Positions 23,593 to 59,176 of a stretch of DNA of 64,000 bases are shown piece after piece. Positions within the stretch are counted from its first letter, which is position 1. Every line of letters begins with the position of its first letter. The notes beneath the pieces are model-generated. The model was given only the letters and a program-made list of their open reading frames with translations. It ran no database searches and had not been told where the DNA came from. A program made the translations under genes and the position numbers. Source of the DNA: a virus (lineage: Duplodnaviria > Caudoviricetes). The DNA lies in IMG/VR virus record IMGVR_UViG_2906626472_000001, positions 32,001-96,000 of that record. One strand, given 5' to 3'.

Positions 23593-24186
23593 TCAGAACT
23601 GGTCGGCCACGCGGCTGTAAGCCGGATGCTTTCGGTTCTTCACCTTGATCCAGTCGCAGGTGCGTGATCGGTAGCGCCGCTCGCGGTGCTTCGAGACGAT
23701 CCCCTCCAGCTCCATGCGGCAGGCAGCCTCGAACAGCTGCGGGCCGATCTCGCCCTGTTCGAACGGTGCCACAAAGATACCCTCGGGCCGGCGGTGCAGG
23801 ACTTTGGCAAGCTTTCCCTTGCGCTCGAACAGCGGCAGTTCCCGCAGGTCATCGCCTTCGAGCGCCACGATGTCGAAGGTGTAGAACTGCGCCTCGTCAT
23901 TGTGACGGTTGGAGTGCAGCGCGTTGAAGTCCGAGACCCCCCGCACGTCGAGCACGCAGATCTCGCCGTCGATCACGAAGCTCTTCTGCTTGATCTTCAG
24001 CGCGGCCTCGACGATGAACGGGTAGCGCCAGGTCCAGTCGAGGCCCGACCTGGAGAACACCTTCACGTCCTTGCCATCGCGGACCACGCGCCCGCGGTAG
24101 CCGTCGTACTTGATCTCGTGGATCCAGTCCGGCCCGCTCGGCACCACCTTGCGCATTACAGGTTTGCAATACTCAAATCTAAACAT
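23593..24186 (-). CDS. ATP-dependent DNA ligase adenylation domain (LigD/LigC-like, no OB-fold)
   Basis: EIKYDGYR (motif I), IDGE, FDIV, EGIVSK, WIKVK. Start at ATG 24186 chosen; the ORF extends to 24258. Confidence 0.85.
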   Translation of the reverse strand: MFRFEYCKPVMRKVVPSGPDWIHEIKYDGYRGRVVRDGKDVKVFSRSGLDWTWRYPFIVEAALKIKQKSFVIDGEICVLDVRGVSDFNALHSNRHNDEAQFYTFDIVALEGDDLRELPLFERKGKLAKVLHRRPEGIFVAPFEQGEIGPQLFEAACRMELEGIVSKHRERRYRSRTCDWIKVKNRKHPAYSRVADQF

Positions 24187-24254
24187 GCGCGGCAGATATG
24201 CATGATCGCCGGAGAGTCGAGTCTGTCCGAAAAACGTACCCAATTTTCTGACAG

Positions 24255-24614
24255 TCACAGCTGCAGCGGCAGCGGCAGCTGCACGCCGATTCTCCGGCCG
24301 ACCTGGCTCTCGATGAAGTCCTGCAGCGCGTCGGATATCTCCCGGCCCTCGGTGCCTATCCGGCGCTCCAGCTCGCGGGCGACGTCCTCGCTGGCATCCC
24401 TCGACCAGCCCTCAGCCGGATTGAAGGCGACGACCCGAAGCACCTGGTCGTACTCGCCCCGGAGGAGGTCTTCGATCAGCGTGGAATAGTCGATCCCTTC
24501 GTCGGTCTCGCGGAAGGCCGCGCCGCTCCTGAAGTCCTCCAGCACAAGGTAGAAATCCTTGTCGAGGCGATCGTTCGGCACGATTGACGGCGAGGCCATA
24601 CGCATGAACTCCAC
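24255..24614 (-). CDS. Hypothetical protein (ligase-associated, Bradyrhizobium-type)
   Basis: YLVLEDF...FRETD...VVAFNPAEGWSRDASEDVA recalled from rhizobial ligase loci. Confidence 0.65.
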   Translation of the reverse strand: MEFMRMASPSIVPNDRLDKDFYLVLEDFRSGAAFRETDEGIDYSTLIEDLLRGEYDQVLRVVAFNPAEGWSRDASEDVARELERRIGTEGREISDALQDFIESQVGRRIGVQLPLPLQL

Positions 24615-46951: not shown

Positions 46952-47821
46952 ATGCCGAGTTTCGAGTCTCCCGCGCTGTACATCGACTTTGCGAGGCTTC
47001 CGCCTCCGCAGGTGATCGAGGAAATCGACTACGAAAAGCTTCTCACGGGCTACCAGCAGCAGGTTCTCGCAAAGAACTCTGCACTCGAAGCCGCGCTGAA
47101 GCTTGAGCAGTCGCCCACGAACATCATCCTGGAGGCCGAGGCCTACGGAGAGATGATCGTCCGCGAGCGCATCAACGCCGCGGCTCGCGCCTCCATGCTG
47201 CCGTTCGCCACGGGGTCTGACCTCGACGTGATCGGCGCCCGGTTCAATGTGCAGCGAATGGACGGCGAGTTGGATCCTCGCCTCCGCAGGCGCATCCAGC
47301 TCTCGATGGAGAGCTACACGACGGCCGGCAGCCCCGGCTCCTACATCTTTCACGCGCTGAGCACCTCGACGAGCGTCAAGGACGCCACCGCGGTCGCCGA
47401 GCGCGGCACCGGCCGGGTCACCGTCACCATCATGGCGGACGGCACCGATCCGGTACCTGGCCAGCCGCTAGTCGACGCCGTCTACGACCGACTCATGTCG
47501 GACGGCATCAAGCCGCTGACCGACGACATCTCCGTCCTGCCGGTCACCAAGATCTCGGCCGACATCACCGCCAACCTGACGCTTTACCCTGGCCCTGACG
47601 CCTCGCTCGTCGTTGCCGACATCAACAAGGCGCTGACTGCGCTGCGCGCCCGCGTCTCTCAGATCGGCCGCGACCTGAAGCGGTCCGCCGTCCTCGCCGC
47701 CCTCACGCGAGAGGGCGTGCAGAACGTCGAAACGGACTTTCAGGACATCAACGTCGGCACGGGCGCAGTCGTCTGGATCACCTCCGCCAGCGTGAACGTC
47801 TCAAGCTTCCGCGAGGAGTAA
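46952..47821 (+). CDS. Baseplate J-like protein
   Basis: LPPPQVIEEIDYE, RERINAAA, ATGSDLD, TAGS.GSY.FHA and PLTD. Confidence 0.9.
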   Translation: MPSFESPALYIDFARLPPPQVIEEIDYEKLLTGYQQQVLAKNSALEAALKLEQSPTNIILEAEAYGEMIVRERINAAARASMLPFATGSDLDVIGARFNVQRMDGELDPRLRRRIQLSMESYTTAGSPGSYIFHALSTSTSVKDATAVAERGTGRVTVTIMADGTDPVPGQPLVDAVYDRLMSDGIKPLTDDISVLPVTKISADITANLTLYPGPDASLVVADINKALTALRARVSQIGRDLKRSAVLAALTREGVQNVETDFQDINVGTGAVVWITSASVNVSSFREE

Positions 47822-47824
47822 TCC

Positions 47825-49054
47825 ATGGCAGCTCGCCTGCTGGACCACATTCTTGCGCCGAATGCGACGCTCTACGAGCGCACCCTGGCTTCGCAGGTCG
47901 ATCGGCTCCTCTCGCTGGACACCGATCGACTGCGCCGGCTCTGGGATCCCTACCGATGTCATATCGACGACCTGCCGTACCTGGCCTGGTCGTTCTCGGT
48001 TGACCTCTGGGACACGGGCTGGCCCGAGGCCAAGAAGCGCAAGGTCGTCGCCGACGCAATCTCTCATCACCGGATCAAGGGCACGAAGGCCGGCATGGCC
48101 ACGTACCTTGACCTGGTCGACTGCGCGCTGAATGATCTGATCGTTCCCCCGGCGCGTGGTTACCGCATGCCGGCGATGACGAACGACGAGTTCATGTCCT
48201 GGCTGGTGCATCTGCCCCAGATCAGGATGTATCCGTACGTTATTCGAGACCCCGCGGGCCCCCGCGAGTTCCGGATGAAGGACGTGTACTTCCGGAACGA
48301 TAACTTCCGCGAGCCCAGCATCGGGCCTCAGATCTACGGTCGGAAGGCGTCCATCTACAAGGATGGTATCGAGACCTTCATCAAGCTGGAAGCCATGACC
48401 GAGCTTGGCGGCCAGCTCGTCGAGCGGGTCTCGTTCGCCAACAAGTCGACCCGCGACTATCACAGCGATGGCTTTCGCGGTCAGAAATTCTACGAGCCGA
48501 CCGACGCGGCCGACAACATCGTCACGGTGCGGCTCAACCAGGCTGCATCCGATCTGATCTCGGTGACGCCGGGGCTTACGCCTCAGGATGTTCGCCCGAC
48601 GCAGATCTCGGAAAAGCACACCGCCTATTCGGCGCAGCACTTCCACGACTACAATGCCTCGTTCCGCGGGAAAAACTTCCGCTGCGAGACGGACGCAGCC
48701 CACTGGATCTACGATCGAGTGTCTCTGCACAGCAAGGAAGACCTGCCCGCAGGCCTGGCCGTGAAGTCCTACCGCGGACACATCCGATACGGCATCCAGC
48801 CCTACACGGCTCAGGCAAGGGTCAGCGTTCCCACGGTTCGCTCAAATGCTCTGGGCTTCGGCGGCAGATTCCGAAACGGCTTCCGCGTCCCCAGCGACAT
48901 GTCGAAGCTCGACGATGCCTGCGGAGCAATCGTCGCCGTCAAGCCTCTGCGAGACACGGTCCTCGTCGACACGGTCAACTACCGAGTCGTGCGCCTCAAG
49001 GATCGTCGCCGCCTGGGAACGTTCAGGCTCGGCGAAATCAAGAAGGTCGCGTGA
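47825..49054 (+). CDS. P2 gpI-like tail/baseplate protein with C-terminal extension
   Basis: LWDP..C....LPYLAW..SVD.W...W.E..KR and HRIKGT. Confidence 0.85.
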   Translation: MAARLLDHILAPNATLYERTLASQVDRLLSLDTDRLRRLWDPYRCHIDDLPYLAWSFSVDLWDTGWPEAKKRKVVADAISHHRIKGTKAGMATYLDLVDCALNDLIVPPARGYRMPAMTNDEFMSWLVHLPQIRMYPYVIRDPAGPREFRMKDVYFRNDNFREPSIGPQIYGRKASIYKDGIETFIKLEAMTELGGQLVERVSFANKSTRDYHSDGFRGQKFYEPTDAADNIVTVRLNQAASDLISVTPGLTPQDVRPTQISEKHTAYSAQHFHDYNASFRGKNFRCETDAAHWIYDRVSLHSKEDLPAGLAVKSYRGHIRYGIQPYTAQARVSVPTVRSNALGFGGRFRNGFRVPSDMSKLDDACGAIVAVKPLRDTVLVDTVNYRVVRLKDRRRLGTFRLGEIKKVA

Positions 49055-51402: not shown

Positions 51403-51609
51403 ATGACCGACAACACGAACGCGGCCACCCCCGAGGTGGTCGCGAGCGAACCCGCGCCGGCTCCCGTCTACTACGACGTGAAGCTGAACGCCCGGTTCAC
51501 GCTGCAAGACTTCAATTACCTGCCGAGGGACCATCACATCGTGGACAAGACGGTCTACGACGCGATGGAAGCCGCGGGGGTGGTTGCCGATGTCAAGCAA
51601 CTTTCCTGA
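51403..51609 (+). CDS. Small tail protein
   Basis: AAGGA RBS. Confidence 0.6.
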   Translation: MTDNTNAATPEVVASEPAPAPVYYDVKLNARFTLQDFNYLPRDHHIVDKTVYDAMEAAGVVADVKQLS

Positions 51610-53272
51610 GCTTGTATTCAGCGAGGATGAAGACTTCACGGCTGATCGTTTGAACTCGGCGATGGAGGTGCTCGATAAGCGCCTCCGCGCCCTGGAGCCC
51701 TTCACGCCTTCTTGGCAGCAGGCAGTCAACGATCTGCGTGACGTCGGTCTCTCTCGTTTGAACGACGCCATACTGCCGGCGTATCAGCGCATCCAGCTGC
51801 TGTCCACGCTCGGCTTCCTCTTCGCTGGTTCGTCCAGCGAAGTCACTCTCACCAACGACATGACTGCGACGTTCATCATCGACGGTGAAACGCAGAAGTC
51901 TCTATTCACGCCTACGCCATTCCTGGCGCTGACGCGCTCCTCGACGGTCGATGACTGGGCTATCGCCCAGCTGATCTCCTACGAGGCTGCGACCGGCACC
52001 TTGATGGTGAAGGTCAAGGCGATCACCGGCAACGCCGGCCCGCACACTGATTGGCAGATCGGCGCATGCGCGGGTAATACCGCCGCTGCGATGGCGTATT
52101 TCGCCCAGATCGATGCGGCCCGCAACCAGTCGAACGTTGCCAAGGCGGCGACCGCAGCTGATCGCGTGCAGACCGGACTTGACCGGGTCCAGACTGGGCT
52201 CGACGTTACGGCTGCAAACATTGCCAAGGAACAGGCGCAGGCGGCTGCCTCGGGTGCAGGCACCTGGGATCCGACGAACTACGCGCTGAAGACCTACGTC
52301 GACAACGCCATCGCCAACCTGATCGGGGCAGCTCCGTCCACATTGGACACGCTGCAGGAGATTGCGCAGCGGTTCGTCACGGACGAGAACGCGCTCAACT
52401 CTCTGACCACCACGGTTTCTGGAAAGCTCCAGAAGTCGATGAACCTCAGCGACTTGACGGATACGGTTGCTGCAAAGGCAAACCTTGGCATCTCGTTCGC
52501 CAATCCGACATCGAAGTCGGGCCTTGCTGCCGTGGCCGGATCGGCCGTCACCTACATGCGCTCGGATGCTGCTCCGGCAATCGATGTCTCGATTTCGCCG
52601 ACCTGGACGGGAAAGCACATCTACCAGTATTCGTCTGGACTGAGCTACGTCCATCAGACGAGCACCTGGGGTGGGCTCTCGGTCTACGCTCCCGACCAAG
52701 GAACCGCCTTCATCAGCTATCATCGCGGCGTTTATGCGGTGAACGCTGGTCTCGACGGCGACAACTGGTGGCGCATCGGCGGTTGGTCTGATGGCGCTGC
52801 CTGGCGCTTCGGCGTCAGCCCGGCTGGTCTGATGCAGTCCGCAGGCTACGGCGCAAACACCACGCCAGTGGCAAGCCAGGTTCGAGCCGCAGGCGACATC
52901 ATCTACGGCGTCTCCGATGTGCGTCTGAAGAAGGACATCGAGACGATCGAGAACGCTCTGGAGAAGATCCGGCAGCTGCGAGGCGTCACCTGGGATCAGA
53001 GCGATCTGGCCAAGGAGCTGAAGGCGCCTGATCAGCCCCGCCGCAAGGCAGGTCTGCTGGCTCAGGATCTGCAGAAGGTTCTGCCTGAAGCGGTCGGCCT
53101 CGCGCCGTTTGACACCGACAAGTTCGGTAGGAGCAAGTCGGGGCTCGACCTCCTGAACATCTACTACGAGCAGCTCTCCGGCCTCTTGGTCGAGGCTGTC
53201 AAGGAGTTGGCGGACAGGAATGATGCGCTCGAAGCGCGCCTGGCCAAGCTCGAAGCAAAACTGGGGGTCTAA
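51590..53272 (+). CDS. Tail fibre with C-terminal peptidase S74 intramolecular chaperone
   Basis: APSTLDTLQEIA; SDVRLKKDI..I..ALEKI..LRGV...AGLLAQD...VLPEAV. Confidence 0.9.
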   Translation: MSSNFPELVFSEDEDFTADRLNSAMEVLDKRLRALEPFTPSWQQAVNDLRDVGLSRLNDAILPAYQRIQLLSTLGFLFAGSSSEVTLTNDMTATFIIDGETQKSLFTPTPFLALTRSSTVDDWAIAQLISYEAATGTLMVKVKAITGNAGPHTDWQIGACAGNTAAAMAYFAQIDAARNQSNVAKAATAADRVQTGLDRVQTGLDVTAANIAKEQAQAAASGAGTWDPTNYALKTYVDNAIANLIGAAPSTLDTLQEIAQRFVTDENALNSLTTTVSGKLQKSMNLSDLTDTVAAKANLGISFANPTSKSGLAAVAGSAVTYMRSDAAPAIDVSISPTWTGKHIYQYSSGLSYVHQTSTWGGLSVYAPDQGTAFISYHRGVYAVNAGLDGDNWWRIGGWSDGAAWRFGVSPAGLMQSAGYGANTTPVASQVRAAGDIIYGVSDVRLKKDIETIENALEKIRQLRGVTWDQSDLAKELKAPDQPRRKAGLLAQDLQKVLPEAVGLAPFDTDKFGRSKSGLDLLNIYYEQLSGLLVEAVKELADRNDALEARLAKLEAKLGV

Positions 53273-53275
53273 GAA

Positions 53276-53509
53276 ATGGCCGTTCCATCATCAGGAGCGG
53301 TCGCTTTCTCGACCGTCAACTCTGTCTTCGGCTACGGCGGCGCGATGAGCAGCTACGTCGGCAAGTATTACTACTGGTACGATCCAAACTGGGGTGTGCG
53401 CTCCGCCCAATTCCCCGGCTCGAACTTCCCGATGACGATGTTCTACGGCACGTCGGGCCACGACGAATGGAATTGTGCCTGCGACTGCAACTGCGCCTGC
53501 GGCAAATAA
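53276..53509 (+). CDS. Cys-tailed small protein A (candidate precursor or fibre-tip adhesin)
   Basis: MAVPSSGAVAFSTVNSVFG...FYGTS..DEWNCACDCNCACGK. Confidence 0.85.
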   Translation: MAVPSSGAVAFSTVNSVFGYGGAMSSYVGKYYYWYDPNWGVRSAQFPGSNFPMTMFYGTSGHDEWNCACDCNCACGK

Positions 53510-53521
53510 CGGAGGTCACTG

Positions 53522-53740
53522 ATGGCTATTGCTACCTCAGGCAGCATCGCAATGTCGACGGTCCAATCAGTTTTCGCCCGAGGCTACTCCATTAGCGGAT
53601 ATCGCGGGACGCAATACTACACGTCGGCGGGATTGGGAACTTTCCCGACTGGAGGCTTCCCATTCTCGGCGTTCTACGGGACGTCACCCAATAATGAGTG
53701 GGCTTGCGCCTGCGACTGTAACTGCAACTGCGGCAAATGA
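53522..53740 (+). CDS. Cys-tailed small protein B (paralogue of A)
   Basis: GGAGG RBS; MAIATSGSIAMSTVQSVFA...FYGTS..NEWACACDCNCNCGK. Confidence 0.85.
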   Translation: MAIATSGSIAMSTVQSVFARGYSISGYRGTQYYTSAGLGTFPTGGFPFSAFYGTSPNNEWACACDCNCNCGK

Positions 53741-53746
53741 GGACAC

Positions 53747-54058
53747 ATGGAAAAGAAATTCAGCTTCAAAGTGAAGGACTGGAGCGCTGACGGCTCAGCG
53801 CGAGTGGAATACATCCACGGCACGCTCGGCACCATCACCAAGTCCGTCTTCATTCCGCTGAACTTCTCCGAGGAGGAGCAGCGCAGCGCGATCGCGATGC
53901 AGTTCCCGTCGACCATGTTCCACTCACGGTGGCTTGGTTATCTGCAACGCGAGGCACCTCTTCCGGCACCCGCCGCCATGGAAGGGGAGTTCACGTTCAG
54001 CCTCGATCGGCCGGATGACAATCTGGTCGAGCAGGCGCACGAGATCGAAAAGGTCTGA
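53747..54058 (+). CDS. Hypothetical protein in the modification cluster
   Basis: GAGGA RBS; coupled to the next gene. Confidence 0.75.
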   Translation: MEKKFSFKVKDWSADGSARVEYIHGTLGTITKSVFIPLNFSEEEQRSAIAMQFPSTMFHSRWLGYLQREAPLPAPAAMEGEFTFSLDRPDDNLVEQAHEIEKV

Positions 54059-54600
54059 TGCGCCGCAAGCGTATGCGGTTCGGAAGTTTTATGGTCACGC
54101 TCTTCACCTGCTACGCGGGTGAGGAGCGGATCATTCCTCCTGGCGAACTGAACCGGGGCATCACTGAAGCCCCGATCGATGATCTCATCGAGATCAACAA
54201 GAATGCCAAGCCGCTAAACCCCATCACGGTCTTCACCAAGGGATCGTTCGAGATGGATCTCGGCTGGGACAAACCATTCCCTATCAAGGCGGGTGAGGGT
54301 GGATACAGAGGCGCTTTTGCGGAGCGTCTGGACAACATTCGGCTACGTGCAGTCGAAGACGGCAGCGAATATCACTGCATTCTTCCGCTCGATCGAACGG
54401 CTCGATACTGGGACAGGCGCCCAGTGAGCTGTGACGAGGGTCAAGCGATCGAGCTTTCCGCCGGCCAGTTTCTATACATCGCGACGGGCGCGATCGAGAT
54501 TGGCGGCAAGACCTTCACCGGTCCTGCCATGGTGGAGTCATCCAAGGACCAGACTGCAATGGCCACAGAGCGTGTGATCGGTGCAAAGATATGGATCTGA
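54058..54600 (+). CDS. Beta-rich (cupin-like) hypothetical protein
   Basis: TGATG coupling; VFTKGSF and LYIATGAIEIGG double-stranded-beta-helix-like segments. Confidence 0.6.
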   Translation: MRRKRMRFGSFMVTLFTCYAGEERIIPPGELNRGITEAPIDDLIEINKNAKPLNPITVFTKGSFEMDLGWDKPFPIKAGEGGYRGAFAERLDNIRLRAVEDGSEYHCILPLDRTARYWDRRPVSCDEGQAIELSAGQFLYIATGAIEIGGKTFTGPAMVESSKDQTAMATERVIGAKIWI

Positions 54601-55322
54601 GTTTCAAACCCAAACACTACCTCCCGGTCCTGTACACGGGATTGGCCGCCGTTGTGCTCGGCGCAATTCTCGTGCTGATCGGCGTGGTTTGGTGGCCGTG
54701 GCTGCTCCTGACCTGGAGCGTCTACTGCTTCCTGGCTATCACCAATTCGGCCGGTCACCACCGGCTATTCTGTCATGGCTCATACGAGACATCGACATTC
54801 TGGGAAGTGTTCCTGATCCTGACGGGGACGCTGTCCTGCTATAGCTCGTCGCTGCAATACTGCGTGACCCACAGCTGGCACCACAAATACGCGGACACCG
54901 ATGGTGATCCCCATCACTTCGAGTCGTTCTGGGACGTTTTCCGTGAGAGCTATCGCATGGAGAACGCCCCGCTCAGCAGCCGGAAGGCAATGGCCAGACT
55001 CCTGAAGCGTCCGGGCCATGCCTTCTTCCATCGCTACTTCTGGGCTTTCCCGGCCCTGATGGTGGTGATCCTGGCCCTCATCGGCTGGAAGGTGCTCCTG
55101 TTTGGATATGTGGCTCCGGTGGGCATCATCCTGTTCTCGGCAGCGATGTTCAACTTCCTGTCCCACGACGACGACGGTCCGAACAACAAAACAATCGCGC
55201 TGTTCGTCTCTGGCGAGGGTAGGCACAAGCTCCATCACGAGAACCCGCACCTTTGGGATTTGCGGCAGAGGTGGTGGCACATCGATCCGAGCGCCTGGCT
55301 CATCTCGCTCATCAAGAGGTAA
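54591..55322 (+). CDS. Membrane fatty-acid desaturase (delta-9-like, di-iron)
   Basis: Three His boxes GHHRLFCH, HSWHH..D...DPH and GEGRHKLHH; transmembrane segments. Confidence 0.9.
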   Translation: MDLSFKPKHYLPVLYTGLAAVVLGAILVLIGVVWWPWLLLTWSVYCFLAITNSAGHHRLFCHGSYETSTFWEVFLILTGTLSCYSSSLQYCVTHSWHHKYADTDGDPHHFESFWDVFRESYRMENAPLSSRKAMARLLKRPGHAFFHRYFWAFPALMVVILALIGWKVLLFGYVAPVGIILFSAAMFNFLSHDDDGPNNKTIALFVSGEGRHKLHHENPHLWDLRQRWWHIDPSAWLISLIKR

Positions 55323-55324
55323 CA

Positions 55325-55954
55325 ATGCCGACGATCCGCTTTCTGACGCCTGCGGACTATCCAGACATGTGCGATATCCTGGACAAGCACACCAGCGGTC
55401 CAGGCGCCTATGCCAATGACCGCACCGCCGCTCCGTCAGCGGATTTTAACTGGCATGCGAAGTGGTACATCGACACGCTCTTCGAGGCGGCGATGACCAA
55501 CTTCTTCGGCTACTTCGATGACGAGGGGCGACTCGCGGCGTTCGTTTGCTTCATCCGGTGGGTTAACGACACCGATATCTCCATCAACATCAAGGTGGAA
55601 GACCCGACCATCGATCTCCCTCGTGCGGAGGGGGCTCGCTGGTCGGATGTCACCATCGACCTGATCAACTGGGGTGTCGGCTACTTCTACTCAGAAGGCG
55701 TGACGACGTTCTGGACGCTGATGATGAGTGGGCAAGAGGCCGCAAGCTTCGCCGCCCATGAGAACTGCATCCTCAACCAGTACGGCAAGGAAAAAGTCCT
55801 GTCGCTTCCGGCCGGCGAGTTGCCGCCGGAGCAATATCGGCGTGTGCAGTGGATGCCGATTTTTCAGGACTCGGAGATCTACAAATACACCGATCCGCTG
55901 CCGCTGTCTGAATACCTGAAAGTAGAGAATGATCCGACTGGACTTGCTGGATAG
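55325..55954 (+). CDS. GNAT-fold-like hypothetical protein
   Basis: N-terminal IRFLTPADY..M..IL and FFGYFDDEGRLAAFV; fold is inferred only. Confidence 0.45.
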   Translation: MPTIRFLTPADYPDMCDILDKHTSGPGAYANDRTAAPSADFNWHAKWYIDTLFEAAMTNFFGYFDDEGRLAAFVCFIRWVNDTDISINIKVEDPTIDLPRAEGARWSDVTIDLINWGVGYFYSEGVTTFWTLMMSGQEAASFAAHENCILNQYGKEKVLSLPAGELPPEQYRRVQWMPIFQDSEIYKYTDPLPLSEYLKVENDPTGLAG

Positions 55955-57227
55955 GGACGGGGAGGTCGTGCCCCTGTTCTATGATCAGCACACGTCACGA
56001 CTGATGGACCAAAACGGCTGGCGAGCCATCGACTTCACGGGGCACCAGCTACTCGAGTCCGCGCCGACAGAGCGCCGCAAGTTCATTGCGGTCGACTACG
56101 ACCAGCCGGGCAAGAAGGTCCGCGAGGTCACCAAGCTGAAGATCCAGCTCGGCCTCGGCTGCAACTATTCCTGCGCCTACTGCCTTCAGGCGGCGCAGAT
56201 CCACAAGGCCGCAGCGTCATCGACGCGCGATGCCAGCGAGTTCCTCTCGAACATCGACAACTGGATCGGCGCTCCCGAGGGCATGGAGAAGGTCGAGCTG
56301 TGGGGCGGCGAGCCGCTGCTCTACTGGAAGAAGATCGAGGTTCTCGCGCCCGCGCTGAAGGAGAAGTTCCCGAACGCCCGCTTCTCGATCATCACCAACG
56401 GATCGCTCCTGACCCGTGAGATCGTCGATCAGCTGAAGGCGTGGGACTTCTCGGTCTCGATCAGCCACGACGGTCCGGGCCAGCACATCCGCGGCGATGA
56501 CCCGTTCGAGGATCCACACAAGTTCGCCTTCATCCAGTATGCATTCAAGCAGCTGCATCCACGCTTCTCGTTCAACTCGGTCCTGACGCCGGCAAGCCAC
56601 GACGTCAGCGCCATCATCGACTGGTTCCAGGACTACTTCCCGGGATGCAATGTCGCGTTCGAGGGCGTGGTTCACAGTTACGCCGCGGACGCTTCGTCGA
56701 TCTTCACGATCGAGCAGCTGGAGCAGTTCAGCGACATGCTGTCGCGCCAGCTCGTCGACGGAAGCGCGTTGCGTTCGCCGGCAATGGCAGACAAGCTCCG
56801 CAGGGCGATGACCTCGCTCGTGAACGAGCGCTCGTCTGATACCTTGTTCCAGAAGTGCGGGATGGACACGCCGGAATACCTGGCCGTCGATCTCAAGGGC
56901 AACGTCATGACCTGCCAGAACGTGGGTGCCAACGGCAACCACAAGATCGGGCATGTGGACGACTTCGAGAGCATCGCGCTCAACACCTCGCGCCACTGGA
57001 GCAAACGCGCCGAATGTCAGAGCTGCCCCGTGCTGCAGCTTTGCCAGGGTGCCTGCATGTACCAGGGCGGTGACAACTGGACGCACAGCTGCAACGCCGA
57101 GTTCTATTACAACCTAGCCTTTCTCCGCGTGGCCCTCTACGGGCTGACCGGTCGATGGCTGACTGGGTTCTCTGGCGACATCGTCAGGCCGACCCTGAAA
57201 AAGGATCGACATGTCCAAGTTCGTTAA
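55929..57227 (+). CDS. Radical SAM protein with SPASM domain
   Basis: CNYSCAYC, WGGEPLL, TNGSLL, ISHDG; C-terminal KCG...GNVMTC...CQSCPVLQLCQGAC...C. Confidence 0.95.
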   Translation: MIRLDLLDRDGEVVPLFYDQHTSRLMDQNGWRAIDFTGHQLLESAPTERRKFIAVDYDQPGKKVREVTKLKIQLGLGCNYSCAYCLQAAQIHKAAASSTRDASEFLSNIDNWIGAPEGMEKVELWGGEPLLYWKKIEVLAPALKEKFPNARFSIITNGSLLTREIVDQLKAWDFSVSISHDGPGQHIRGDDPFEDPHKFAFIQYAFKQLHPRFSFNSVLTPASHDVSAIIDWFQDYFPGCNVAFEGVVHSYAADASSIFTIEQLEQFSDMLSRQLVDGSALRSPAMADKLRRAMTSLVNERSSDTLFQKCGMDTPEYLAVDLKGNVMTCQNVGANGNHKIGHVDDFESIALNTSRHWSKRAECQSCPVLQLCQGACMYQGGDNWTHSCNAEFYYNLAFLRVALYGLTGRWLTGFSGDIVRPTLKKDRHVQVR

Positions 57228-57948
57228 GCTGGCAGCCCAGCTGGACAAGATCCCGCACCTGAAGCTGGGGCCAGAGTTCTTCGTGCCCCTGCTCCAGGCC
57301 GAGCTGGCTGCGATCGACGCGGCGCTCTTCGTGCCGTATCGATCCAAGAGTCACAACACGGCGCACATCGCCAAGTCCTGGCACGGCCTGTCCCTAATCT
57401 CTCCGGGCGGAACGGTTCACGGCGACCTCACCGAGGAGCCTTATGCCGGCCGCACGGACTGCGCATGGACGCCGATCGCAGAGGCCAGCCCCTACATCAA
57501 GCACGTCATCAGTGAGCTTGGCGGCGAGGGCCAGCGGGCTCGGTTCATGTGCATGCGGGCAGGCGGGAGCCTCACCTGGCACCGGCACGGCACCGAGATT
57601 TCGATCGAGCAGGGCAACATCATGGGCCAGCTCAGGCCCAACTGGTACGAGGTCATCGTCCACGTCCCGGTGCGATCGAACCCGGAATACAGCTACGAGG
57701 TCATCGCCGCTCACGAGTACGAGCTGGGCGACTTCTTCGCTGCCGGCATGAAGATCCACTCGCAGAACTATCCGGAGGGAGAGGCGTGGGCCTTCAACGG
57801 CACCCACTACCACAACGTCTTCAACCGCTCGGCCACACAGGATCGCTACTCGATCATGCTGACAGCGGACATCCGGATGAAGAAGACCTTCGACATCGTG
57901 TCGAAAGCCATTGAGGCCTATGACGGGCCGCTGATCGAGAGGTCCTGA
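57211..57948 (+). CDS. AspH-like Fe(II) oxygenase 1
   Basis: W.GLSL, R.RFM....G.LTWHRH, VHVPVRSNP, GEAW.FN....HNVFN...R. Confidence 0.75.
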   Translation: MSKFVKLAAQLDKIPHLKLGPEFFVPLLQAELAAIDAALFVPYRSKSHNTAHIAKSWHGLSLISPGGTVHGDLTEEPYAGRTDCAWTPIAEASPYIKHVISELGGEGQRARFMCMRAGGSLTWHRHGTEISIEQGNIMGQLRPNWYEVIVHVPVRSNPEYSYEVIAAHEYELGDFFAAGMKIHSQNYPEGEAWAFNGTHYHNVFNRSATQDRYSIMLTADIRMKKTFDIVSKAIEAYDGPLIERS

Positions 57949-58697
57949 TGTCAAAGTTCGTAGAGCTGGCCAGGAAACTGGACAGCATCCCGCATCTCGA
58001 CCTCGGCCGAAGCTTTGAGGTGGAGAGGCTTCAAGCGGAGCTGGACTCAATCGACTCAGCATTGTTCGTGCCGTACCGCACGGTGAGCAGATACAAGCAG
58101 CTCATCGCGAACAACTGGCAAGGCCTGTCGATGGTGGCGCCACACGGCTCCATCCATGACGATCTGACGGAGGAGTTCAACGGGCCTCCGCTCGACGCTA
58201 CCTGGACGTCGGTTGCCGAGCAGTGCCCTTACATGAAGCAGGTGATCACCGAGCTTGGCGGCGAGGGCCAGCGCGTGCGCTTGATGCGAGTGATGCCCGA
58301 AGGTCGCCTGACATGGCACCGTCACGGCAACGAGACTTCGGTCGAGAACGGCAAGATCCTCGGCGGCCTTCGTCCCAACTGGCACGAGCTGATCGTCCAC
58401 GTCCCTGTCAGGACGAACCCGGAGTTCAGTTACGAAGTCATCGAAGTTCCTTCATATCAATTGATCGACTTCATGACCGAGCCGCTGGCGATCCACCGCA
58501 AGAACTACCCGGCCGGCGAGGCCTGGGGTTTCAACTCGGTCCACGTCCACAACGTGTTCAACCGCTCCAAGACCGAACCGCGATACGCTCTGATGCTGAG
58601 CCTCGACATCAGGATGAAGAAGACCTTCGACATCGTCTCCAAGGCGGTCGAGCGCTACATCGCGAACGGCGAGGGGCCTTTAATGCCAGGGCTCTGA
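57948..58697 (+). CDS. AspH-like Fe(II) oxygenase 2 (tandem paralogue)
   Basis: Colinear with oxygenase 1 (MSKFV.LA..LD.IPHL, LTWHRHG, RPNW.E, HNVFNRS, DIRMKKTFDIVSKA). Confidence 0.75.
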   Translation: MSKFVELARKLDSIPHLDLGRSFEVERLQAELDSIDSALFVPYRTVSRYKQLIANNWQGLSMVAPHGSIHDDLTEEFNGPPLDATWTSVAEQCPYMKQVITELGGEGQRVRLMRVMPEGRLTWHRHGNETSVENGKILGGLRPNWHELIVHVPVRTNPEFSYEVIEVPSYQLIDFMTEPLAIHRKNYPAGEAWGFNSVHVHNVFNRSKTEPRYALMLSLDIRMKKTFDIVSKAVERYIANGEGPLMPGL

Positions 58698-58698
58698 A

Positions 58699-59121
58699 AT
58701 GCAAACCATTCTGTCTTCGAAGCCCCCTGTCGTTCTCGAAGACGACTTCAATGTTGCCACCAACGAAGACTGGGTTCGTGAGTGGCAGCTCAAGAATGAT
58801 GACGAAATCGTCCCGCTCGACACGTCCTGGAAACTGTACTCGCAGCTCCAGAGACAGAACACGGGCGACATCGCCGTCATGCTCTCAACCGACAACGGTC
58901 GACTCGTCGTCACCGATCGGCAAGCCGGCAAATTCGGCCTCAGGCTGAAGCAGGCTGACGCCAATCAGTGTCCGCCCGGGACGTACCTGTATGACATCGT
59001 CCTCGTTGCTGGCGATGGCATCTACCGCTTGGTCACAGGGACGATCATCGTCCAGCAGGGGATCACCAACGTCCCCGGCCAGGAGACGTGGAAGCATGTT
59101 CCGCTGATCCTCAGACCATAA
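58699..59121 (+). CDS. Ig-like structural protein (BppU-N-like)
   Basis: PPGTYLYDIVL......RLVTGTIIVQQGIT pattern. Confidence 0.55.
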   Translation: MQTILSSKPPVVLEDDFNVATNEDWVREWQLKNDDEIVPLDTSWKLYSQLQRQNTGDIAVMLSTDNGRLVVTDRQAGKFGLRLKQADANQCPPGTYLYDIVLVAGDGIYRLVTGTIIVQQGITNVPGQETWKHVPLILRP

Positions 59122-59147: not shown

Positions 59148-59176
59148 GCCGCCCCTCCCGGGCGGCGTTTTTGTTT
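59148..59176 (+). terminator. Hairpin plus T-tract before the sheath gene
   Basis: GCCGCCC-CTCCC-GGGCGGC-GTTTTTGTTT. Confidence 0.65.

What the first reader, a model, noticed from the sequence alone, without database searches (positions are those of the whole stretch)
53276..58697. RiPP-like post-translational modification cluster embedded in the tail-fibre module
Seen: right after the S74 tail fibre lie two paralogous 72-77 aa genes ending in EW[N/A]CACDCNC[A/N]CGK. A tightly coupled run follows: a 103-aa unknown, a cupin-like protein, a His-box desaturase, a GNAT-like protein, a radical SAM/SPASM enzyme and two AspH-like oxygenases. Structural genes then resume. Established: SPASM radical SAM enzymes install thioether crosslinks (sacti-/ranthipeptides, Cys to Asp/Asn carbons) or aromatic crosslinks in short peptides, and AspH hydroxylates Asp/Asn in Cys-rich domains. 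Inference: the phage chemically tailors a Cys-rich virion peptide (fibre tip or adhesin) or makes a RiPP. I do not know of a characterised system like this.
Basis: partly seen in the sequence, partly recalled or inferred. Interest (0 to 1): 0.95.

Follow-up and report, generated by a model that had tools for sequence, protein, structure and literature searches.

The report
Enzyme-matured cysteine-ladder phage fibre-tip proteins
A Bradyrhizobium prophage encodes, inside its tail-fibre operon, two small fibre-associated proteins ending in a ladder of alternating cysteines beside a radical-SAM enzyme and helper enzymes, so the phage probably cross-links its host-binding tip chemically, which I found in no paper.

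Summary
All eleven ORFs exist as described, tightly coupled, between an S74 tail fibre and a fibre-assembly-like gene, and the run ends at a terminator-like hairpin before the sheath gene.

It is a C-terminal (N/D/A-Cys)n ladder plus a radical SAM/SPASM enzyme. I found such a ladder upstream of a homologue of this enzyme in 51 of 79 genome loci, and in 42 of the 58 loci with at least 4 kb of upstream flank under a strict test. In many of these the ladder ends a 280-630-aa open frame that follows the tail-hub gene.

The N-terminal 60 residues of the two small proteins are a widespread module. In 3 of 3 cultured phages inspected, the gene carrying it starts right after an S74-type fibre gene. 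The small proteins are therefore more likely virion tip proteins than secreted RiPPs.

The GNAT fold and the SCD1-like desaturase are confirmed. The cupin label rests on the Atlas's predicted model. The AspH label sits just below the Pfam cut-off.

The chemistry (probably thioethers) is inferred, not shown.

Eight literature searches found no description. This scan noted the same theme earlier on other genomes.

The parts
51584..53272 (+). Tail fibre with a C-terminal S74 intramolecular chaperone domain (562 aa)
   Evidence: Pfam Peptidase_S74 1.7e-16 at residues 444-504. 32 PHROG families at E<=0.01; 22 of the 25 listed are tail-fibre, spike or baseplate families and 3 have no known function.
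53276..53509 (+). pepA, 77 aa: post-fibre N-terminal module, hypervariable middle, DEW junction and the Cys ladder NCACDCNCACGK
   Evidence: ORF. 24 database relatives. Alignment A5. Module homology.
53522..53740 (+). pepB, 72 aa: paralogue of pepA (53% identity) with the ladder ACACDCNCNCGK; GGAGG ribosome-binding site 7 nt upstream
53747..54058 (+). 103-aa protein of unknown fold, conserved in the clade
   Evidence: ORF. Present in 10 of 90 loci. No Pfam, NCBIfam, PHROG or PDB-profile match.
54058..54600 (+). 180-aa protein, cupin-like by predicted structure only
   Evidence: Atlas model pTM 0.75; TM 0.58-0.69 to pirin/KduI/HutD clusters. No sequence-level match.
54591..55322 (+). 243-aa membrane His-box protein of the stearoyl-CoA desaturase type; an optional insert
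   Evidence: PDB 4ZYO 4.9e-11 and 4YMK 1.5e-9 with His boxes aligned. Present only in the window (L012) and L003, 2 of 90 loci.
55325..55954 (+). 209-aa GNAT-fold protein
   Evidence: AF2 pLDDT 81.6. All listed Foldseek top matches are GNAT acetyltransferases, best E 2.9e-8. No Pfam hit.
55929..57227 (+). Radical SAM/SPASM enzyme, 432 aa: C78-X3-C82-X2-C85 plus seven SPASM cysteines
   Evidence: Pfam PF04055 7.7e-13; TIGR04085 above cut-off; best named families are PapB, nif11 and QhpD, all far below their cut-offs. phrog_1802 6.8e-59. Invariant cysteines in A1. PDB profile best hits 8VPO, CteB 5WGG and anSME 4K37.
57211..57948 (+). AspH-like putative oxygenase 1 (245 aa)
   Evidence: PF05118 E 2.6e-4, 21.3 bits against a cut-off of 22.6. 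6 of 8 clade members match.
57948..58697 (+). AspH-like putative oxygenase 2 (249 aa), paralogue (60% identity)
   Evidence: PF05118 E 1.7e-4, 21.9 bits. Alignment A6.
58699..59121 (+). 140-aa tail-fibre-assembly-like protein that closes the operon
   Evidence: phrog_1084 1.3e-11; phrog_3304 'L-shaped tail fiber protein assembly' 2e-7. Conserved in relatives.
59148..59166 (+). Terminator-like hairpin (7 G-C pairs, then a T-run) between the cassette and the sheath gene
   Evidence: This is a pattern match only: 7 such sites were found in the region against 5.9 expected.

Best explanation
This is a fibre-tip maturation cassette inside the late tail-fibre operon of a P2-like-ordered Bradyrhizobium prophage.

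pepA and pepB are small fibre-associated virion proteins. Each has an N-terminal module of about 58 residues that is typical of proteins encoded just after S74-type fibres. A hypervariable loop follows, then a conserved DEW junction and a C-terminal ladder of five alternating cysteines.

Inferred steps:
1. The radical SAM/SPASM enzyme binds the ladder and abstracts a hydrogen from the residue between the cysteines (Asn, Asp or Ala; beta- or alpha-carbon). It joins that carbon to a neighbouring Cys sulfur, giving several thioether rings (-2 Da each).
2. The AspH-like proteins add hydroxyl groups (+16 Da).
3. The GNAT-fold protein acylates an amine. The invariant C-terminal Lys and the N-terminal Ala are candidates.
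4. The product is a compact, redox-insensitive tip that sits on the mature fibre after the S74 chaperone is cut off.

Shown here: gene content, operon structure, the conserved ladder-enzyme linkage and the module homology. Inferred: every chemical step, and incorporation into the virion.
For: (1) Linkage of ladder and enzyme.
- Among 79 genome loci fetched with the enzyme alone, I read an N/D/A-type Cys ladder at or near the C-terminus of a same-strand upstream ORF in 51 (list, used).
- Under a strict automatic test, 42 of 58 loci with at least 4 kb upstream and 6 of 21 shorter ones had one. The rate was 52.5 hits per Mb of frame upstream against 2.6 elsewhere.
- Seven of 7 close viral relatives with upstream sequence have one.

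(2) Ladder on larger tail-module frames.
- In many loci the ladder ends a 280-630-aa open frame (stop-to-stop length) that follows the tail-hub gene.
- Ralstonia phage RSP15 'side tail fiber' ends in NCQCGN.
- Achromobacter phage 2-1 gp27 has NCNCDCNCSC followed at once by a Hint domain (PF05203, 5.3e-12).

(3) The N-terminal module.
- The pepA profile found 152 proteins. Most match only profile positions 1-60, at their own N-termini.
- In Burkholderia phage JC1, Synechococcus phage MinM2 and Sinorhizobium phage phiM9 (3 of 3 inspected), that gene starts within 4 nt of the end of a tail-fibre gene, or overlaps it by 4 nt. In phiM9 the fibre is annotated S74.

(4) Conservation pattern of the peptide.
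- Mean column identity is 0.84 for the N-terminal part, 0.59 for the middle (length 6-16 residues), 0.86 for the junction and 0.84 for the ladder.
- This is the reverse of the usual RiPP pattern of a conserved leader and a variable core (that pattern is from my knowledge).

(5) Enzyme kinship. The best named families are thioether-forming SPASM maturases: PapB 82 bits, nif11 73, QhpD 72. anSME scores 49.

(6) Residues between the cysteines. Over 44 distinct tails they are N 86, A 30, D 26, R 15, T, Q and Y 3 each, and V 2. The review PMC9389541 (passages read) says NxxcB's native beta-thioether acceptor is Asn and that Ala, Gln and Asp are tolerated.

(7) Precedent on proteins. CrpC installs thioethers on the 29-kDa CrpA (PMC13692751; abstract and passages). 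QhpD cross-links QhpC before an oxygenase acts (PMC7876137; abstract).

(8) Oxygenase genes recur. 39 of 51 ladder loci carry at least one gene of the groups F4, F5, F65 or the AspH-like group. Sampled members of F4, F5 and F65 match the 2OG-Fe(II) families PF13759 or PF13640, though the two F5 members scored were one below and one just above the cut-off, and a third had no hit.

(9) No protease or exporter gene lies in the run.
Against: - No modification, mass shift or virion proteomics exists for any member.
- 12 of 51 ladder loci have no oxygenase, so hydroxylation is not part of the core.
- The AspH-like family shows no profile similarity to the 2OG oxygenases of the distant loci (hhalign probability 0.1), and its own assignment is below Pfam's cut-off.
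- In close relatives the ladder is mostly Cys-Ala (NCACACACACGK). An Asn/Asp-specific chemistry therefore cannot be general.
- Spacing is not strictly alternate in some relatives (CNCGACGK, CACVDPNCAC).
- The same enzyme family also sits in 10 non-phage loci, beside a YcaO-nitroreductase gene and a 65-77-aa ORF with one or two Cys in most loci and four in L044. So the family is not restricted to virion proteins.
- No RiPP recognition element was detected in the enzyme's N-terminus or in the 103-aa protein.
- The enzyme falls far below every curated NCBIfam equivalog cut-off.
- Attachment of the N-terminal module to the fibre is inferred from gene order only.
Confidence: 0.55

Rival explanations
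1. pepA and pepB are precursors of a released RiPP (a bacteriocin or signal). The N-terminal 60 residues act as leader, the ladder is the core, and the product leaves the cell at lysis.
For: - Small precursor-like ORFs lie directly upstream of a SPASM maturase and tailoring enzymes.
- The same enzyme family sits in YcaO-type RiPP-like clusters in Variovorax, Ramlibacter and Polaromonas loci, next to 65-77-aa ORFs.
- Duplicated precursors are common in RiPP clusters (from my knowledge).
Against: - No leader peptidase or exporter lies in the run.
- The 'leader' is a module of much larger proteins encoded right after fibre genes.
- The putative core is conserved and the middle is variable.
- In other phages the ladder ends 280-630-aa open frames in the tail module.
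- The genes lie inside the structural late operon, between the fibre gene and the fibre-assembly-like gene.
Confidence: 0.12
2. The ladder is a metal or iron-sulfur binding site. This would be metallothionein-like C-X-C, or a cysteine counterpart of the HxH iron sites of T4-type fibres. The radical SAM enzyme would then do something other than thioether formation, or would modify only one position.
For: - C-X-C repeats are classical metal ligands (from my knowledge).
- The authors of PMC13692751 suggest that modified CrpA may bind metals (passage read).
- Cys is invariant while the residues between vary.
Against: - The tight, wide linkage to a SPASM maturase whose nearest named relatives make thioethers.
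- Irregular spacing is tolerated in some relatives.
- Free thiolate-metal sites on an extracellular particle of an aerobic soil bacterium would be prone to oxidation (inference).
Confidence: 0.12
3. pepA/pepB and the enzymes act only during assembly. They would be a transient cap or chaperone for the fibre tip and would be absent from the finished virion.
For: - The position between the fibre gene and the fibre-assembly-like gene is where P2-type phages encode assembly factors (gene order; P2 order recalled).
- The search listing shows a paper on transient chaperone caps on Alteromonas phage fibres (PMC10579305; listing and abstract start only).
Against: - A hypervariable loop with length changes fits a host-contacting surface better than a chaperone.
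- In other phages the ladder is part of a large tail-module protein itself.
- The fibre already has its own S74 chaperone.
Confidence: 0.08

Closest known systems
CrpC/CrpA of Methanococcus voltae (PMC13692751; abstract and passages read)
   Same: A SPASM radical SAM enzyme with three [4Fe-4S] clusters acts on a neighbouring Cys-rich protein rather than a short peptide. The cysteines are C-terminal, there are paralogous substrates with a shared N-terminus, and thioether (ranthionine) links were reported.
   Different: CrpC belongs to TIGR04463. The window enzyme scores 47 bits against that family's cut-off of 525. CrpA has 17-residue repeats with C-X-X-Q/D, not a C-X-C ladder. The system is archaeal and cellular, not viral, and the paper's text contains no occurrence of 'phage'.
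QhpD/QhpC/QhpG maturation of quinohemoprotein amine dehydrogenase (PMC7876137, abstract read; Cys-Asp/Glu links as described in PMC13692751)
   Same: A radical SAM enzyme makes intra-protein Cys-to-Asp/Glu thioethers in a small Cys-rich subunit, and then an oxygenase tailors it. That is the same order of enzyme types as proposed here. QhpD is the third-best NCBIfam match (72 bits).
   Different: 72 bits is far below the cut-off of 453. QhpG is a flavoprotein, not a cupin or 2OG-type enzyme. The product is an enzyme cofactor subunit, not a virion part.
NxxcB/NxxcA and PapB/PapA ranthipeptide systems (review PMC9389541, passages read)
   Same: These make radical beta-thioethers from Cys to Asn or Asp. 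NxxcB tolerates Ala, Gln and Asp as acceptor, which matches the residues found between the ladder cysteines. PapB is the best NCBIfam match (82 bits).
   Different: Their substrates are short secreted peptides with leaders, and donor and acceptor are 3-4 residues apart. Here they would be adjacent. 82 bits is far below PapB's cut-off of 340.
T2/S16-type gp38 tail-fibre tip adhesins (function recalled from memory)
   Same: A small separate protein is encoded after the fibre gene and carries hypervariable segments. One protein that shares pepA's N-terminal module (P0155) weakly matches Pfam GP38 (4.8e-4, below cut-off) and phrog_2056 'tail fiber protein; host specificity' (5.4e-7) in its Gly-rich part.
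   Different: pepA and pepB themselves have no GP38 match. They have a Cys ladder where those proteins have glycine-rich domains. No enzyme-dependent maturation is known to me for gp38.

Membership tests
Radical SAM superfamily | CX3CX2C cluster motif and a match to PF04055 above its gathering score | tested here: met
   GCNYSCAYC at C78/C82/C85, invariant in 24 sequences. PF04055 49.4 bits against 29.5.
SPASM subfamily | C-terminal domain with the seven- or eight-Cys auxiliary-cluster motif (motif recalled) and a match to TIGR04085 | tested here: met
   TIGR04085 39.9 bits against 27. C310, C329, C363, C366, C372, C376 and C388 are invariant. Spacing is CX13GX4C...CX2CX5CX3C...C, read.
PapB-family ranthipeptide maturase (NF047865) | Score at or above the curated equivalog cut-off | tested here: not met
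   82.1 bits against 340.
QhpD (TIGR03906), CrpC-type (TIGR04463), anSME (TIGR03942) | Score at or above the curated cut-off | tested here: not met
   71.9 against 453, 47.2 against 525, and 49.1 against 349.
RiPP biosynthetic cluster | Short precursor gene beside the maturase | tested here: met
   pepA and pepB lie 2.2-2.4 kb upstream in the same operon.
RiPP biosynthetic cluster | Leader peptidase and/or exporter, and a RiPP recognition element | tested here: not met
   No protease, ABC-transporter or PqqD-like match in any of the ten proteins at E<=0.1. PDB-profile matches to the enzyme start at residue 45 or later, and those to the SPASM maturases at 61-74. Absence of a sequence match does not exclude a divergent recognition element.
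Aspartyl/asparaginyl beta-hydroxylase family (PF05118) | Score at or above the gathering cut-off; Fe-binding His pair | tested here: inconclusive
   21.3 and 21.9 bits against 22.6. 6 of 8 clade members match at E<=0.01. His124, His126, His151 and His201 are invariant. The AF2 model was unusable (pLDDT 34), and there was no PDB sequence match.
GNAT acyltransferase fold | GNAT alpha/beta fold; acyl-CoA binding loop | tested here: inconclusive
   The fold is met: pLDDT 81.6, and all listed Foldseek top matches are GNAT enzymes (E from 2.9e-8, TM by target 0.50-0.74). There is no Pfam match, and I could not place the cofactor loop with confidence.
Membrane fatty-acyl desaturase (SCD1 type) | Three His boxes and homology to solved desaturases | tested here: met
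   4ZYO 4.9e-11 and 4YMK 1.5e-9. HRLFCH, HSWHHK and GEGRHKLHH align with the desaturase boxes. Pfam gave no FA_desaturase match at E<=0.1, and NCBIfam DesA gave only E 0.003.
Cupin superfamily (180-aa protein) | Double-stranded beta-helix fold | tested here: inconclusive
   Only the Atlas's own model supports this: TM 0.58-0.69 to pirin/KduI/HutD clusters. There is no Pfam or PDB-profile match.
Post-S74-fibre module proteins (unnamed family) | N-terminal module of about 58 residues (M-x-hydrophobic-P-x-S-G ... F-G ... F-P ... F-Y-G), encoded directly after a tail-fibre gene | tested here: met
   Profile matches to positions 1-60 in most of the 150 listed proteins. Alignment. Gene order in the window and in 3 of 3 cultured phages inspected.

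The most novel reading that the evidence does not exclude
Phages display a natural-product-like chemical group on a virion protein. The ladder would be converted into a polycyclic thioether that is hydroxylated and possibly acylated, and that group itself would contact or penetrate the host envelope. Host range would then be set jointly by the hypervariable loop and by which tailoring enzymes the phage carries. In this window, two adhesins each come with an oxygenase paralogue of their own.
Probability: 0.2. Interest if true: 0.92.

Novelty: new variant of a known kind. Interest (0 to 1): 0.8.

Why it matters
Receptor-binding tips decide which bacteria a phage can infect, and they are thought of as plain folded protein. 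If a dedicated iron-sulfur enzyme with oxygenase and acyltransferase helpers rewrites the tip covalently, two things follow. Sequence alone would not predict the binding surface, and heterologous expression of such fibres without the enzymes would give inactive protein. RiPP-type chemistry would also gain a structural role in viruses.

The system is directly testable by co-expressing a 77-aa protein with one enzyme and reading the mass. The ladder-enzyme pair recurs in dozens of species of Alpha- and Betaproteobacteria and in cultured Ralstonia and Achromobacter phages.

Tried and rejected
- Sequence-level identification of the 103-aa, 180-aa and GNAT-fold proteins failed. Profile searches of PDB sequences gave nothing below E 0.3.
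- The AspH-like profile had no PDB match, and its AF2 model was unusable (pLDDT 33.9). No fold test was therefore possible.
- hhalign found no relation in three comparisons. Family F3 of distant loci did not match the 180-aa or the 103-aa protein. The AspH-like family did not match the 2OG oxygenases F4/F5. The 180-aa protein did not match F4/F5.
- F3 (about 300 aa, in 41 of 51 ladder loci) remains unidentified. Its best PDB match was intimin at E 0.07.
- Reciprocal search. The DNA pattern for E-W-N-C-x-C-x-C-x-C in viral contigs gave 15 stretches. Seven lie on the already known clade contigs, which carry the enzyme. Eight are chance matches: five lie in frames full of stops and three in short, Cys-rich low-complexity frames (35-53 aa). 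None of the eight has the enzyme. This added no independent locus.
- An alignment-based scan with the diverse ladder proteins was impossible because the alignment has no conserved stretch.
- tblastn of pepA against cultured phages found nothing.
- No RNA holder was listed for the stretch. I did not lay reads.
- I considered a CTQ-like Trp-Cys cofactor because of the invariant Trp before the ladder. I set it aside because distant ladders have Phe, Tyr or other residues there.
- I considered Cys-to-formylglycine chemistry. The anSME family scores lower than the thioether families, and no C-x-P/A-x-R motif (recalled) is present.
- The third in-window ladder hit, at 24283(-), lies out of frame with the real gene there.
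- Supplements of the papers were not seen. They may hold the catalytic-proximity data that could classify this enzyme.
- Literature searches that found no description of the system. One search returned 0 papers holding 'radical SAM', 'tail fiber', 'cysteine-rich' and 'phage' together.

Full report
WHAT IS THERE.

The window is a high-GC (about 0.62) stretch whose second half is a phage late region. A 100%-identical locus (L012) was fetched from a Bradyrhizobium genome contig of 144,687 bases, so this is a prophage or phage-like element of Bradyrhizobium.

PHROG matches give the following order:
- baseplate wedge (46952-47821)
- tail protein (47825-49054)
- a 755-aa protein of phrog_17470
- the S74 tail fibre (51584-53272; Pfam 1.7e-16)
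- the run in question
- a 140-aa protein matching 'L-shaped tail fiber protein assembly' (2e-7)
- sheath (phrog_23, 9.5e-99), tube, tail chaperone and tape measure

This is the P2-type order (recalled), with the run in the place of the fibre-assembly genes. Spacings run from a 26-nt overlap to a 12-nt gap. pepB and the 103-aa gene have GGAGG and GAGGA just upstream. A G+C-rich hairpin with a T-run follows the 140-aa gene at 59148-59166. That hairpin is a pattern match only.

THE ENZYMES.

- The 432-aa protein is a radical SAM/SPASM enzyme (PF04055 7.7e-13; TIGR04085 above cut-off). CX3CX2C and seven further cysteines are invariant across 24 homologues.
- Its best named relatives are PapB (82 bits), nif11-type (73), QhpD (72), geopeptide (68) and CcpM (64). 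All are far below their cut-offs. anSME scores 49.
- Against solved structures the best matches are 8VPO (2e-21), CteB 5WGG (3.5e-16) and anSME 4K37 (1.4e-15).
- It belongs to phrog_1802 (6.8e-59).
- The 243-aa protein is a short stearoyl-CoA-desaturase-type His-box protein (4ZYO 4.9e-11).
- The 209-aa protein folds as a GNAT (pLDDT 81.6; all listed Foldseek top matches are GNAT acetyltransferases, among them RimI).
- The 180-aa protein is cupin-like only by the Atlas's own model.
- The two 245/249-aa paralogues match PF05118 just under its cut-off. Six of 8 clade members match. My model of them failed.
- The 103-aa protein matches nothing.

WHAT IS CONSERVED.

Nine close viral relatives (enzyme 78-87% identical) keep this order: fibre, one peptide, 103-aa, 180-aa, GNAT, radical SAM, one AspH-like, 140-aa.
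- The desaturase occurs only in the window and L003.
- Two AspH-like genes occur only in the window and L003.
- Two peptides occur only in the window (L003 is cut upstream).
- Counts of peptides and AspH-like genes are therefore 1:1 in nine loci and 2:2 in the window.

Iterated HMM searches over all 90 loci held at that point found the 103-aa, 180-aa, GNAT and AspH-like proteins in 10-12 loci only, all of this clade.

The enzyme family itself is large: 2786 proteins at E<=1e-20. A genome scan gave 79 loci, at 37-47% identity beyond the clade, mostly from Alpha- and Betaproteobacteria.
- In 51 of these I read a ladder of N/D/A-spaced cysteines at or within a few residues of the C-terminus of a same-strand ORF, 0.5-3 kb upstream of the enzyme (list used).
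- By a strict automatic criterion the count is 42 of 58 loci with at least 4 kb upstream. The enrichment over all other frames is twentyfold.
- Of the 28 loci without a ladder, 10 are a different, non-phage context (see below) and 14 have under 3 kb of upstream sequence. In one of those 14 (L083) an internal ladder lies downstream of the enzyme. Four have full flanks and no ladder.
- Over 44 distinct tails, the residues between cysteines are N 86, A 30, D 26, R 15, T, Q and Y 3 each, and V 2. The residue before the first Cys is Asn in 36. Zero to 6 residues follow the last Cys.

THE LADDER SITS ON FIBRES.

In many distant loci the ladder ends a 280-630-aa open frame (stop-to-stop length) that follows the tail-hub gene and two small genes.

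Among cultured phages, Ralstonia phage RSP15 has the enzyme (38.5% identity) three genes after a 'side tail fiber' ending in NCQCGN. Achromobacter phages JWF and 2-1 have it (37-41%) two genes after a 480-aa protein. In that protein NCNCDCNCSC is followed at once by a Hint domain (PF05203 5.3e-12). Self-cleavage there would leave the ladder at the new C-terminus. This is an inference from what Hint domains do, which is recalled.

Between ladder and enzyme the distant loci carry an unidentified protein of about 300 aa (F3/F163, 41 of 51 loci). They also carry one to three genes of the groups F4, F5 and F65. Sampled members match PF13759 or PF13640, some only below the cut-off. Counting these groups and the AspH-like group, 39 of 51 ladder loci have at least one. 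Some loci carry a second radical SAM gene.

These oxygenases show no profile similarity to the AspH-like family. Oxygenase partners were therefore recruited more than once, and 12 ladder loci have none.

WHAT pepA AND pepB ARE.

Twenty-four database relatives plus pepB were aligned.
- N-terminal part: mean column identity 0.84
- middle: 0.59, with 6-16 residues
- FP...FYG...DEW segment: 0.86
- ladder: 0.84
- All 25 sequences end in Lys.

A profile of this alignment, searched against 1.84 billion representatives, found 152 proteins.
- About 28 of the 150 listed match through to the ladder region. The 26 of these that I read include P0151 (246 aa, no ladder); the other 25 are small module-plus-ladder proteins sharing a junction, usually EWNC.
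- One of them (P0166) continues into a Hint-like sequence. A few have a Gly run in place of the ladder.
- Most of the rest match only positions 1-60, at their own N-terminus, and continue into 150-540-aa bodies that are often glycine-rich. One has Gly_rich_2 (1.7e-14). One weakly matches the gp38 adhesin family and a 'host specificity' PHROG.

In Burkholderia phage JC1, Synechococcus phage MinM2 and Sinorhizobium phage phiM9 (3 of 3 records inspected), the gene with this module starts within 4 nt of the end of an annotated tail-fibre gene, or overlaps it by 4 nt. In phiM9 the fibre is annotated as S74. In the other two the S74-like C-terminus is visible by eye.

pepA and pepB are therefore members of a fibre-associated protein family in which the usual distal domain is replaced by the ladder. 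The phiM9 paper (PMC4621102, passages read) says nothing on that gene.

MECHANISM.

I take the ladder to be the substrate of the radical SAM/SPASM enzyme. The most likely product is a set of thioether links from Cys sulfur to a carbon of the intervening residue.

Support is by analogy:
- the nearest named relatives make such links;
- the spectrum N, A, D, Q matches the acceptors tolerated by NxxcB (PMC9389541);
- CrpC and QhpD do this on proteins.

Cys-Ala ladders in close relatives mean that the acceptor need not be Asn or Asp. Any residue with a beta- or alpha-hydrogen would do.

The AspH-like proteins, the GNAT-fold protein and the cupin-like protein would tailor the product further in this clade. 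The desaturase may be an unrelated lipid-directed insert. None of these steps is shown.

A SECOND CONTEXT OF THE SAME ENZYME FAMILY.

Ten loci (Variovorax, Ramlibacter, Polaromonas and others) carry four genes in this order:
- an ORF of about 350 aa with no significant family match;
- a YcaO-nitroreductase fusion (PF02624 8.7e-44);
- a 65-77-aa ORF, visible in seven of the ten, that carries (S)DC in six and has no ladder;
- the enzyme.

This shows that the family also works in ordinary RiPP-like clusters. It hints that an Asp/Asn-Cys pair is the recognised unit.

KNOWN OR NEW.

Eight full-text searches found no paper that links a radical SAM enzyme to a phage fibre or to a Cys-rich virion protein. 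The CrpC paper does not mention phages.

This scan's own notes report the same ladder-enzyme theme in at least seven other genomes. I used them as leads for three papers and checked those papers myself.

New in this window are:
- the split form, with the ladder on a post-S74 module protein, in two copies;
- the Ala-rich ladder;
- a clade-specific helper set (103-aa, cupin-like, GNAT, AspH-like in two copies, desaturase).

VERDICT.

The chemistry is untested. This is a new variant of RiPP-like protein maturation, placed on a phage host-recognition organ.

Noticed in passing
L024, L031, L036, L040, L044, L048, L049, L053, L054, L020 (upstream of the enzyme match in each): Non-phage clusters hold an unidentified ORF of about 350 aa, a YcaO-nitroreductase fusion, a 65-77-aa ORF (visible in seven of the ten; six carry ...(S)DC...) and a homologue of the same radical SAM/SPASM enzyme. 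This looks like an uncharacterised azoline-plus-radical-SAM RiPP family.
   Followed up: partly
L002:5838-7280 (Achromobacter phage 2-1 gp27) and protein P0166: The Cys ladder is followed directly by a Hint (intein-like) domain. This occurs in a 480-aa tail-module protein and in a 237-aa module-plus-ladder protein. Self-cleavage would expose the ladder as the C-terminus.
   Followed up: partly
Proteins P0150-P0292; L091:4001-4690, L092:4001-4540, L093:4001-5146: An unnamed N-terminal module of about 58 residues (MxLPxSGxISxS..EFG...FPS.N.S..FYG) heads many phage proteins with glycine-rich bodies. It is encoded right after S74-type fibre genes. Two giant proteins (3998 and 1865 aa) show six matched stretches each.
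   Followed up: partly
window 53276-53740 and 57211-58697; L003-L014: The number of ladder peptides equals the number of AspH-like genes: 1:1 in nine relatives and 2:2 in the window. This hints at dedicated pairs.
   Followed up: no
Alignment A5 and proteins P0163, P0173, P0235, P0264: All 25 clade peptides end in Lys. Some distant relatives replace the ladder by a glycine run but still end in Lys.
   Followed up: no
L079:4361-5431, also L075 and L090: A second, shorter radical SAM gene (PF04055 1e-16 in L079; 356 aa) lies directly upstream of the SPASM enzyme in three loci.
   Followed up: no
window 23593-24258 (-): A 221-aa ORF contains EIKYDGYR, which resembles the ATP-dependent DNA ligase KxDG motif (recalled). 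It was not tested.
   Followed up: no
window 24283 (-): A third alternating-Cys run (CSCRCRCSCDC) lies in a 58-aa frame that is out of frame with the real gene 24255-24614(-). It is a chance product of G+C-rich DNA.
   Followed up: yes
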